A stretch of 40,885 nt of DNA, from the UHGV virus genome UHGV-0869933; one strand, given 5' to 3'. The notes under the pieces were generated by a model that was given only the letters and a program-made list of their open reading frames with translations, searched no databases and was not told the DNA's origin. How positions within the stretch are numbered: the stretch's first letter is position 1; each line of letters begins with the position of its first letter. A program made the position numbers and the translations under genes. The DNA is from a virus. Of the stretch, positions 26,057-26,360 are shown one piece after another.

Positions 26057-26360
26057 TGACCAGTTTTGCAGAGGGGTTTTGCAGAGGTTTTGCAGAGAAA
26101 ATTAAAAACGATATCCTGCGGAGAACATAAACACCCACGGATCCAGTCGTACCGAGTCTTTTACGGTAGTAACACCAGATTTGTACTTAGCCGTGGTATC
26201 GATATCCATGTACCACACTGGTAGATTATAAAAAATGTAATAACAAGCTGTTTATAAAAGGAAAAACAACCTTTTGCGATGATTTTTTATACAGTTACTC
26301 TGTGTTTTTAACCGCTTGATTTTTTTAAAGTCTTTTTTTGTTTTGCAGAGGATTATCCCT
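26057..26360. other. attP region with tandem arm-type repeats
   Basis: Three tandem TTTTGCAGAG(G) at 26064-26074, 26077-26087, 26088-26097 right after the int stop, a fourth at 26341-26351; AT-rich spacer between. Confidence 0.55.
26102..26215 (-). other. Phage-borne replacement 3' end of a host outer-membrane beta-barrel gene (OmpW-like)
   Basis: Minus-strand in-frame peptide WYMDIDTTAKYKSGVTTVKDSVRLDPWVFMFSAGYRF ends in the aromatic porin C-terminal signature and lacks an N-terminal gene body; ompW is a known lambdoid integration target. Confidence 0.45.

What the first reader, a model, noticed from the sequence alone, without database searches (positions are those of the whole stretch)
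26057..26360. attP carries arm-type repeats and an apparent replacement 3' end of an OmpW-like porin gene
Three tandem TTTTGCAGAG(G) repeats follow the int stop and a fourth lies about 250 bp away, matching the P'/P arm layout of lambda-type attP sites. Between them the minus strand encodes an in-frame peptide ending ...DSVRLDPWVFMFSAGYRF followed by a stop, with no gene body upstream. This is the signature of a phage that integrates into the 3' end of a host gene and restores it. The int-to-tail adjacency also shows the window is in vegetative map order, not bounded by attL/attR.
Basis: partly seen in the sequence, partly recalled or inferred. Interest (0 to 1): 0.55.

Follow-up and report, generated by a model that had tools for sequence, protein, structure and literature searches.

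The report
Known phage attachment site in ompW

Summary
Four exact copies of GTTTTGCAGAG lie at 26063, 26076, 26087 and 26340, and nowhere else in the window. The minus strand of 26100-26220 is a 121-bp copy of the E. coli ompW 3' end.

The integrase is 376/376 identical to IntE of the published "PPompW" prophages. Their 121-bp att and their attP were defined by PCR in Nakamura et al. 2021 (PMC8112680).

In an ST131 strain a full 212-aa hybrid ompW abuts int, and the displaced host ompW end sits at the far end of the prophage. About 1,730 of 5,426 complete E. coli genomes match this int/att region.

Three points I did not find in the papers I could search:
- The arm-site motif. The outer copy keeps GTTTTGCAG in five diverged P arms, and homology ends just beyond it.
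- A conserved IHF consensus in the P arm.
- A much narrower crossover. Secondary-site lysogens in focD (ABU 83972) and rlmC (E. albertii) place the exchange in about 5-7 bp at 26220-26213, not across the 121 bp.

The same junction also occurs between tandem prophages, so "vegetative order" is plausible but unproven.

Verdict: already known, low interest.

The parts
24700..24948 (+). xis (excisionase, 82 aa), overlapping the start of int
   Evidence: Pfam Exc (PF07825) E = 1.3e-7. Annotated xisE/excisionase in PPompW records and RefSeq genomes.
24926..26056 (+). int, a lambda-type tyrosine integrase (376 aa) with an N-terminal arm-binding domain
   Evidence: Arm-DNA-bind_1 at residues 2-71, E = 7e-22; Phage_integrase E = 1.3e-16. 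Lambda Int structures 5j0n/1z1b/1z1g match at E about 1e-55. Catalytic residues R226, K249, H331, R334, H354 and Y363 are all kept. 376/376 identical to IntE of PPompW_132418 and PPompW_499 and to the ST131 prophage Int; 375/376 to O157 TW14359.
26041..26067 (.). Perfect 12-bp palindrome (AAAACTGGTCAT ttg ATGACCAGTTTT) spanning the int stop codon. Candidate two-way terminator for int and for the restored ompW.
   Evidence: Inverted repeat I4. The minus-strand RNA folds at -17 kcal/mol, z = -5.7, with 0 of 200 shuffles as stable, and is followed by UUUUUU. The simple terminator scan did not call it. Its function is inferred.
26063..26097 (+). P' arm: three tandem arm-type sites GTTTTGCAGAG (26063-73, 26076-86, 26087-97), packed between the int stop and the ompW stop
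   Evidence: Exact repeats. The 35-nt block is identical in E. albertii, in 14 IMG/VR contigs and in the O157, ST131 and O121 prophages. Same position relative to int as lambda P'1-P'3.
26100..26220 (-). 121-bp copy of the ompW 3' end (codons about 175-212, the stop codon and 2 nt more). This is the published 121-bp att of PPompW. After integration it becomes the 3' end of the host ompW.
   Evidence: 95/121 identical to K-12 ompW nt 521-639 plus 2. Pfam OmpW E = 2.4e-13. Annotated as 'duplication due to insertion of PPompW' in LC567822. Described in PMC8112680.
26145..26192 (-). Diverged middle of the ompW copy. It encodes the segment between the last two barrel strands (TAKYKSGVTTVKDS), inferred to be extracellular loop 4.
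   Evidence: Alignment with K-12 (TANYKLGGAQQHDS) and with the displaced ST131 end (TEVKYKSNGAVLPAGRYSDN). OmpW is an 8-stranded barrel with long extracellular loops (PMC2993939; PDB 2f1t/2mhl). The loop assignment follows from barrel topology and was not read from coordinates.
26213..26220 (.). Crossover region, the inferred overlap: C-AGTGTGG in the ompW orientation. A second allele, C-GGTCTGG, exists in other attP copies.
   Evidence: focD secondary site in ABU 83972: attB, attL, attR and attP share only CGGTC, which is 26220-26216. The E. albertii rlmC junction falls in CCAGT, 26222-26218. The two attP polymorphisms, 26219 A/G and 26216 G/C, switch together in three different P-arm lineages and mirror host ompW alleles.
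26309..26321 (-). IHF consensus AATCAAGCGGTTA (WATCAANNNNTTR) in the P arm
   Evidence: One of only two exact matches in the window. In the five diverged P arms the position holds an exact match (ATCAA) or a one-mismatch match (ATCAG). Binding was not tested.
26340..26350 (+). P-arm arm-type site (P1-like), in the same orientation as the P' sites, about 120-134 bp from the crossover
   Evidence: Exact fourth copy. GTTTTGCAG(A/G)(G/A) is kept in five diverged P arms with almost no indels between it and the core, and homology among the phages ends just outside it.
26063..26350 (.). The whole attP (P'-O-P in window orientation), 288 bp
   Evidence: Sum of the above. Lambda attP spans a comparable 226 bp from P1 to P'3.

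Best explanation
Window 26063-26350 is the attachment site (P-O-P') of a PPompW-type lambdoid phage. These phages integrate into the 3' part of E. coli ompW.

Inferred mechanism:
- Int binds the GTTTTGCAGAG arm sites with its N-terminal domain: three next to its own stop codon and one about 125 bp on the other side of the crossover.
- Its C-terminal domains bind the core.
- IHF bends the P arm at 26309-26321.
- The complex captures ompW around codons 174-177 and exchanges strands in a short overlap at about 26219-26213 (AGTGTGG).

Shown by lysogens:
- Everything from the overlap to the ompW stop codon (26100-26220) comes from the phage after integration. The host keeps a full-length 212-aa OmpW with a phage-derived last loop and last strand.
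- The host's own gene end is left as a fragment at the far end of the prophage.

The palindrome at the int stop probably terminates both int and the rebuilt ompW. Xis (24700-24948) directs the reverse reaction.
For: Identity with a studied family. Int is 376/376 identical to IntE of the GenBank PPompW prophages. PMC8112680 reports the 121-bp att in ompW and confirmed attP by PCR of excised circles.

Lysogens. In ST131 CU568-3, attL is a full ompW followed by the P' sites and int. attR is the b region, the P arm, the core, the host-type ompW end and trpA. The O121 prophage ends show the same arrangement. 1,732 of 5,426 complete E. coli genomes match the int/att region.

Arm sites. There are four exact 11-mers and none elsewhere. 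The Arm-DNA-bind_1 domain is present. The layout and relative orientation match those read directly from lambda. The P-arm copy and the IHF consensus are conserved across five P-arm lineages of about 75-85% identity, with almost no indels between core and arm site, and homology stops just outside the arm site.

Crossover. The four-way comparison at focD shares only CGGTC. The rlmC junction lies at the same spot. Overlap-allele switching is seen in three lineages. In ompW the site has the dyad CATGT-N9-ACATG, read from the sequences printed.
Against: - No binding or recombination was tested here. The arm, IHF and terminator assignments rest on sequence only.
- No second P-arm site (lambda P2 equivalent) is found within 2 mismatches.
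- No IHF consensus lies in the unusually long P' arm, where the arm sites sit 119-157 bp from the crossover against 55-84 bp in lambda.
- The window-type C half-site (AATCTACC) resembles the ompW half-sites poorly.
- The simple terminator scan did not call the palindrome.
- The exact 7-bp overlap is inferred from two secondary-site lysogens, and only one junction was seen in E. albertii.
- The window's own phage is a mosaic that was not found as such in the collections. The lysogen evidence therefore comes from prophages with the identical Int and a near-identical attP.
Confidence: 0.93

Rival explanations
1. The junction in this window is not the attP of a free or circular phage. It is the internal junction of two prophages integrated in tandem at ompW. 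Such a junction has the same P-O-P' sequence.
For: Exactly this arrangement (tail genes, b region, P arm, ompW copy, P' sites, int) lies between two different prophages in E. coli SCU-116, flanked by a normal attL at ompW. The same holds in O157:H7 TW14359 and many other O157 genomes. PMC8112680 reports tandem PPompWs. The window holds no host DNA and is cut at both ends, so it cannot decide.
Against: Both ends of the window belong to the same morphogenetic type: an HNH/YlcI region at 88-683 and matching tail genes at 32453-40848. A single prophage with just this order (lysis, HNH, terminase, HK97-type head, these tails, VapA-type b region) exists in ABU 83972. A circular permutation of one genome would therefore give the window. 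Either way the site is functionally an attP.
Confidence: 0.25
2. Strand exchange happens further inside the ompW homology, not at its edge. Candidates are the invariant block TGGTACATGGATATCGATACC (26215-26195, with GGTA/TACC symmetry) or anywhere in the 121-bp att, as the published description leaves open.
For: The 21-28 bp identity block is the size of a lambda-type core. ompW lysogens alone only confine the exchange to 26220-26193. The empty ompW of ABU 83972 also differs from the prophage's attP at the position equivalent to 26201.
Against: At focD, attL already carries phage sequence from 26215 onward and attR carries focD sequence from the same point. The only shared bases are CGGTC at 26220-26216. 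The rlmC junction lies at the same place. attL keeps the phage alleles and attR the host alleles across all of 26192-26100, which excludes exchange in that part. The switching of exactly 26219 and 26216 in three P-arm lineages cannot be made by homologous recombination, because homology ends 1 bp to their left.
Confidence: 0.12
3. Besides restoring the gene, the phage-borne ompW fragment acts mainly as a landing pad (an attB inside a prophage) for further phages of the same integrase type.
For: PMC8112680 names the same 121-bp sequence in other prophages 'attB-in-PP_3' and proposes this role. Tandem arrays at ompW exist.
Against: The paper states that integration into this sequence inside a prophage had not been seen. 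In a lysogen the hybrid attL and attR sites, not a bare attB, are what remains. Tandem arrays are explained by ordinary re-use of the site.
Confidence: 0.1
4. The TTTTGCAGAG repeats are not integrase arm sites. They could be chance repeats, part of the int terminator, or sites for another regulator.
For: No binding data exist. The first copy overlaps the palindrome's T run.
Against: Four exact 11-mers lie within 288 bp and there are none elsewhere. They bracket the crossover at lambda-like distances and in lambda-like orientation. The distal copy is the last conserved element of five diverged P arms. The integrase has an arm-binding domain that needs such sites.
Confidence: 0.03

Closest known systems
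PPompW prophages of STEC/EPEC and other E. coli: P08 of O145:H28 strain 112648, and PPompW_132418 / PPompW_499 of O121:H19 (Nakamura et al. 2021, PMC8112680; GenBank LC567822, LC567824)
   Same: The integrase protein is identical (376/376), as is the P' arm and the 121-bp ompW copy (100% over 26040-26220 in LC567824). Same target gene and same gene order (exonuclease, xis, int).
   Different: The P arm and b region are a different mosaic version: about 81% identity over 26100-26368 to the O121/O145 type, which carries NleG/EspM effector genes. This window carries a Vap-family and a YkgJ-family gene instead. The 21-bp attB-in-PP_1 of those prophages is absent.
Bacteriophage lambda attP / Int / Xis / IHF system
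   Same: Homologous Int with an arm-binding domain and the full catalytic set. Three tandem arm sites abut the int stop and one same-orientation site lies about 130-140 bp across the core. An IHF consensus sits in the P arm, and xis lies upstream of int and overlaps it.
   Different: The arm motif differs (GTTTTGCAGAG against lambda's AGTCACTAT type), and so does the core. The P' arm is about 65-70 bp longer because it contains the ompW end. No inverted P2-like site was detected. The target lies inside a gene rather than between gal and bio.
e14 element / phage 21 integrating into icd, and phages that integrate into tRNA genes, all of which carry a substitute 3' end of the target gene (from my own knowledge: Hill et al. 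1989 J Bacteriol; Campbell 1992 J Bacteriol; not checked here)
   Same: Same strategy. The crossover lies inside a host gene, and the element supplies a diverged but functional replacement 3' end, so the gene stays intact in the lysogen.
   Different: Different target gene and different integrase specificity. Here the replaced part includes a variable surface loop of an outer-membrane protein.
Prophage P-EibA of E. coli ECOR-9 (AF151091)
   Same: Its right end has the same P arm (84% identity), the exact GTTTTGCAGAG arm site and the core, followed by a K-12-type ompW end. It is an attR at ompW.
   Different: It carries different cargo (eibA, eaaA), and only the right end is in the record.

Membership tests
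PPompW prophage family (as defined in PMC8112680) | Integrase more than 90% identical to the PPompW integrase | tested here: met
   376/376 identical to IntE of PPompW_132418 and PPompW_499. The paper's own reference gene (EC112648_1574) was not available. The GenBank records carry the PPompW name, and their reference to EHEC gene ECO26_1771 and the O121:H19 paper (PMC8767318) suggest the same group; authorship was not checked.
PPompW prophage family | Integration into ompW with a 121-bp att duplication | tested here: met
   26100-26220 is 121 bp and 95/121 identical to K-12 ompW. attL and attR in ompW were seen in ST131 and O121 prophages with the same Int. Not shown for the window's own phage, whose lysogen was not found.
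Lambda-type (arm-dependent) tyrosine integrase attP | Integrase with an N-terminal arm-binding domain plus the catalytic R-K-H-R-H-Y set | tested here: met
   Pfam Arm-DNA-bind_1 E = 7e-22. Alignment to lambda Int. Residues R226, K249, H331, R334, H354, Y363.
Lambda-type (arm-dependent) tyrosine integrase attP | Repeated arm-type sites on both sides of the core, distinct from the core sequence | tested here: met
   Three copies on one side and one on the other, all exact, with conservation of the distal copy across lineages. A second P-arm site was not found.
Lambda-type (arm-dependent) tyrosine integrase attP | Short overlap identical in attP and attB, flanked by inverted core-type sites | tested here: inconclusive
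   The exchange is mapped to 26220-26213. ompW has the dyad CATGT-N9-ACATG, but the phage C half-site matches poorly. The cleavage positions are not determinable from sequence.
Lambda-type (arm-dependent) tyrosine integrase attP | Binding of Int, IHF and Xis to the sites, and recombination that depends on them | not testable with these tools
   Only consensus matches are available: IHF at 26309-26321 and the xis gene.
Gene-end-restoring integration (icd/e14 type, tRNA type) | The target gene remains a full-length open reading frame in the lysogen, with its 3' end supplied by the element | tested here: met
   The ST131 lysogen ompW is 639 bp / 212 aa, annotated as OmpW. It aligns end to end with the solved OmpW (2mhl, E = 1e-114) and carries the phage-type C-terminus.

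The most novel reading that the evidence does not exclude
Two linked ideas remain open.

1. Integration swaps the last surface loop and last strand of OmpW for a phage-borne version. Three different loop sequences were seen: K-12, the ST131 native remnant and the phage copy. Lysogeny might therefore change recognition of OmpW by colicin S4 or by OmpW-dependent phages. That would be a form of lysogenic conversion carried by the att site itself.

2. The two-allele overlap (AGTGTGG / GGTCTGG), which mirrors host ompW alleles, may decide which E. coli lineages can be lysogenised at ompW. A mismatch may push the phage into gene-disrupting secondary sites. The example is focD in ABU 83972, whose own empty ompW differs from the prophage's attP at one overlap position.
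Probability: 0.15. Interest if true: 0.45.

Novelty: already known. Interest (0 to 1): 0.18.

Why it matters
The finding mainly shows that the first-stage reader can recognise an attP and a gene-end replacement from raw sequence.

Biologically, ompW is one of the busiest prophage sites in E. coli. About a third of complete genomes match this integrase region, and the site carries effector-bearing and Stx-associated prophages in EHEC.

Knowing the arm motif and the true 5-7 bp crossover, rather than "121 bp", would let prophage borders and secondary insertions be called exactly. One such insertion inactivated F1C fimbriae in the therapeutic strain ABU 83972. None of this changes current understanding of site-specific recombination.

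Tried and rejected
- Source of the window. I looked for it in the phage, E. coli and IMG/VR collections. Only mosaic relatives turned up: about 97% identity to SCU-116 and no full-length match. One IMG/VR contig of similar length (40,960 bp) has a different P arm.
- A lambda P2-like second P-arm site. Nothing lies within 2 mismatches on either strand. The best candidate, CTTTTGCGATG at about 26271-26281, is not conserved among lineages, so I dropped it.
- First crossover model. I initially placed the crossover in the invariant 21-bp block 26215-26195, using the ST131 and K-12 alleles. I abandoned this once the attP variant CCGGTCTGG and the focD/rlmC junctions were seen.
- Terminator scan. It found no terminator. 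The palindrome is kept only as a candidate, on folding energy.
- Promoter-like hits in the P arm are at chance level, 3 found against 2.3 expected.
- Rfam found nothing in 25500-27200.
- The 'YkgJ family, partial' annotation upstream of ompW in B2 strains has no DNA similarity to the phage's YkgJ-family gene. I dropped it.
- Origin of the phage-type loop. An exact 20-mer scan of one genome per species found only an E. albertii lysogen and no species with it as a native allele.
- Literature. A search for the arm motif gave only unrelated hits. The colicin S4 paper says nothing about which OmpW loops are used.

Full report
**1. What is in the sequence**

The 376-aa integrase gene ends at 26056. 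Seven bases later come three tandem exact copies of GTTTTGCAGAG, at 26063, 26076 and 26087. A fourth exact copy lies at 26340 in the same orientation. There is no other exact copy in the 40.9-kb window, and the one-mismatch hits elsewhere are at chance level.

The minus strand of 26102-26227 reads NLPVWYMDIDTTAKYKSGVTTVKDSVRLDPWVFMFSAGYRF* and matches the C-terminal 41 positions of the Pfam OmpW model (E = 2.4e-13). Against K-12 ompW, the similarity starts sharply at 26220 and ends 2 nt past the stop codon at 26100. That span is 121 bp, 95 of them identical. It has three parts:
- a perfect 28-bp block (26220-26193);
- a diverged middle (26192-26145);
- a nearly perfect end (26144-26100).

Upstream of 26220 there is no ompW similarity.

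**2. Identification**

The integrase is a lambda Int homologue. It has the Arm-DNA-bind_1 domain (E = 7e-22), matches PDB 5j0n at E = 8.5e-56, and keeps all six catalytic residues.

It is 376/376 identical to "IntE" of the GenBank prophages PPompW_132418 and PPompW_499 and to the prophage integrase of an ST131 strain. It is 375/376 identical to that of O157:H7 TW14359.

Nakamura et al. 2021 (PMC8112680) describe these "PPompW" lambda-like prophages. They report integration into ompW with a 121-bp attL/attR, attP confirmed by PCR and sequencing of excised circles, wide distribution, and tandem copies in some O157 strains. The GenBank records annotate the same 121 bp as "duplication due to insertion of PPompW". 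In the complete-genome collection, 1,732 of 5,426 E. coli genomes match the int/att region.

**3.

In E. coli O25:H4 (ST131) CU568-3 the gene order is yciC, then ompW (639 bp, 212 aa, intact), then int, xis and the exonuclease gene. About 53 kb further on come the tail fibre gene, the Vap-family gene, an ompW fragment and trpA.

The intact ompW carries the phage-type end (…TAKYKSGVTTVKDSVRLDPWVFMFSAGYRF). The P' repeats follow it. It aligns end to end with solved OmpW (2mhl, E = 1e-114). The fragment at the far end follows the P arm and carries a different, host-type end (…TEVKYKSNGAVLPAGRYSDNVRLD…). The O121 prophage ends show the same with a K-12-type host end.

**4. Anatomy of attP**

For comparison I read lambda directly:

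| Feature | Lambda position | Distance from core centre |
|---|---|---|
| Core | 27724-27738 | 0 |
| P'1-P'3 (tandem; the last overlaps the int stop) | 27786-27815 | +55 to +84 |
| P1 (same orientation as the P' sites) | 27590-27598 | -141 to -133 |
| P2 (inverted) | 27620-27628 | about -110 to -100 |

Here the triple site also abuts the int stop, and the single distal site has the same orientation, 120-134 bp from the crossover. The P' sites are 119-157 bp from the crossover, because the ompW end lies between them and the core.

I aligned the P arms of five lineages: window/SCU-116, phage 204576/L030, P-EibA, O157/O121 and L026/L021. They are about 75-85% identical, and they show:
- almost no indels between core and arm site (one 1-nt gap in two rows);
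- GTTTTGCAG(A/G)(G/A) conserved;
- homology ending just outside that site;
- an IHF consensus (AATCAAGCGGTTA, 26309-26321, minus strand) that is exact or one mismatch off in every lineage. It is one of only two exact matches in the window.

No P2-like site is seen.

A perfect 12-bp palindrome spans the int stop (26041-26067). On the ompW strand it folds at -17 kcal/mol (z = -5.7) and is followed by U6. It probably replaces the native ompW terminator, which integration moves away. The simple scan did not call it.

**5. Where the exchange happens**

ompW lysogens only confine the exchange to the 28-bp identity block. Three further observations place it at the extreme edge.

(a) E. coli ABU 83972 carries a complete prophage with the same Int inside focD/sfaF. 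CFT073 has the empty site.

| Site | Sequence |
|---|---|
| attB (CFT073 focD) | …GCATGA CGGTC AGTCATATC… |
| attL (ABU 83972) | …GCATGA CGGTC TGGTACATGG… |
| attR (ABU 83972) | …ATCTAC CGGTC AGTCATATC… |
| attP (GGTC type) | …ATCTAC CGGTC TGGTACATGG… |

Only CGGTC, which is 26220-26216, is common to all four.

(b) In E. albertii NBRC 107761, int, the P' sites and the ompW copy are joined to rlmC at …CTGCCAGT|GTGGTACATGG. K-12 rlmC reads …CTGCCGGTTAAACATATG at that place.

(c) attP copies come in two versions, CCAGTGTGG and CCGGTCTGG. They differ only at 26219 and 26216 and mirror K-12-type and ST131-type ompW. Both versions occur in each of three P-arm lineages. Homology ends one base to the left of these positions, so homologous recombination cannot swap them. 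Inheritance of the overlap from either parent during site-specific recombination can.

I infer an overlap at about 26219-26213. In ompW it is flanked by CATGT and ACATG, nine bases apart, which is the geometry of the lambda core. The published "121-bp att" is thus a 5-7 bp crossover plus about 114 bp of replacement gene end. This step is inference: one secondary site has only one junction, and cleavage positions cannot be read from sequence.

**6. Vegetative order**

The window holds only phage DNA and is contiguous across P-O-P'. The identical arrangement lies between two different prophages in tandem at ompW in SCU-116 and in O157:H7.

Both window ends fit one morphogenetic type. A single prophage with that full gene order exists in ABU 83972. 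One circularly permuted genome is therefore the more likely source, but the matter is undecided.

**7. Side observation on OmpW**

The diverged middle of the copy encodes the segment between the last two strands of an eight-stranded barrel whose loops are extracellular (PMC2993939). Three versions were seen: K-12, the ST131 native remnant and the phage copy. Lysogens therefore display a chimeric OmpW.

OmpW is the colicin S4 receptor (PMC2649078) and a phage receptor in Serratia (PMC10132071). Whether the swap changes recognition is untested.

ABU 83972's own ompW is empty. It differs from its prophage's attP at one inferred overlap position and at one further core position. This may be why the phage went to focD, an insertion already noted, without att analysis, by Zdziarski et al. 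2010 (PMC2928814).

**8. Verdict**

The element is a member of a published and very common prophage family, with an identical integrase and att. The searches I could run found no description of the arm motif, the IHF site, the narrowed crossover or the secondary-site reading of the focD/rlmC insertions. These are incremental.

Novelty: already known. Interest: low.

Noticed in passing
L032/L033 (E. coli ABU 83972, NC_017631.1: 1166380 and 1219442); empty site in L034 (CFT073 focD): A complete prophage with the same integrase is inserted in the F1C fimbrial usher gene focD. It shares only CGGTC with attP, so this is a secondary attachment site. The strain's own ompW is empty and differs from the prophage's attP at two core positions. 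The focD disruption is published (PMC2928814), but I found no link to the ompW phage family.
   Followed up: yes
L015:3480-3900 (Escherichia albertii NBRC 107761, NZ_BBMY01000048.1): The int, P' sites and ompW copy are fused at the core edge to the 5' part of rlmC. This creates an rlmC-ompW' fusion reading frame, apparently another secondary-site insertion. The other junction and the state of ompW in E. albertii could not be fetched.
   Followed up: partly
window 26216 and 26219; L003, L021, L026, L030: attP exists in two versions (CCAGTGTGG and CCGGTCTGG) that mirror host ompW alleles. Each version is found in three different P-arm lineages. ABU 83972 ompW has a third combination, CAGTCTGG.
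   Followed up: partly
window 26145-26192 (minus strand); L008:2974-3114; L006 ompW: The OmpW segment between the last two strands differs strongly in sequence, and in length for ST131, between K-12, the ST131 native remnant and the phage copy. Integration therefore exchanges a probable surface loop of OmpW.
   Followed up: partly
window 26675-27127 (minus strand): A 150-aa protein of the Rhodococcus equi Vap virulence-protein family (Pfam R_equi_Vir, E = 5e-34) is encoded next to attP in an E. coli phage. It is conserved in ST131, ABU 83972 and SCU-116 prophages.
   Followed up: no
window 27313-27645 (plus strand): A YkgJ-family CxxCxxCC protein gene lies in the b region. Nakamura et al. trace another prophage-borne attB to the chromosomal ykgJ-ecpE region, but their 21-bp attB-in-PP_1 is absent from this window.
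   Followed up: partly
L005/L010/L011 (E. coli SCU-116, NZ_CP051719.1): Two different lambdoid prophages with the same integrase sit in tandem at ompW. In several assemblies (SCU-116, SCU-123, SCU-108, EC8, S1-CAM-04-C) the att-region match lies at about 23.4-24.2 kb of the record. In SCU-116 the record starts at the prophage large-terminase gene. The shared offset suggests the others do too, which was not checked and looks like an assembly-rotation quirk.
   Followed up: partly
L007:3771-5057 (LC567824.1, Stx2a phage Stx2_499): A second phage with an unrelated 428-aa integrase (intR) begins directly after the end of PPompW_499. This is the prophage-in-prophage arrangement described in PMC8112680.
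   Followed up: no
window 22194-24635 (plus strand): An 813-aa protein sits upstream of xis. It has a long acidic, low-complexity middle and a C-terminal exonuclease-like end, and it is annotated 'exonuclease' in RefSeq. It is frameshifted in several PPompW records.
   Followed up: no
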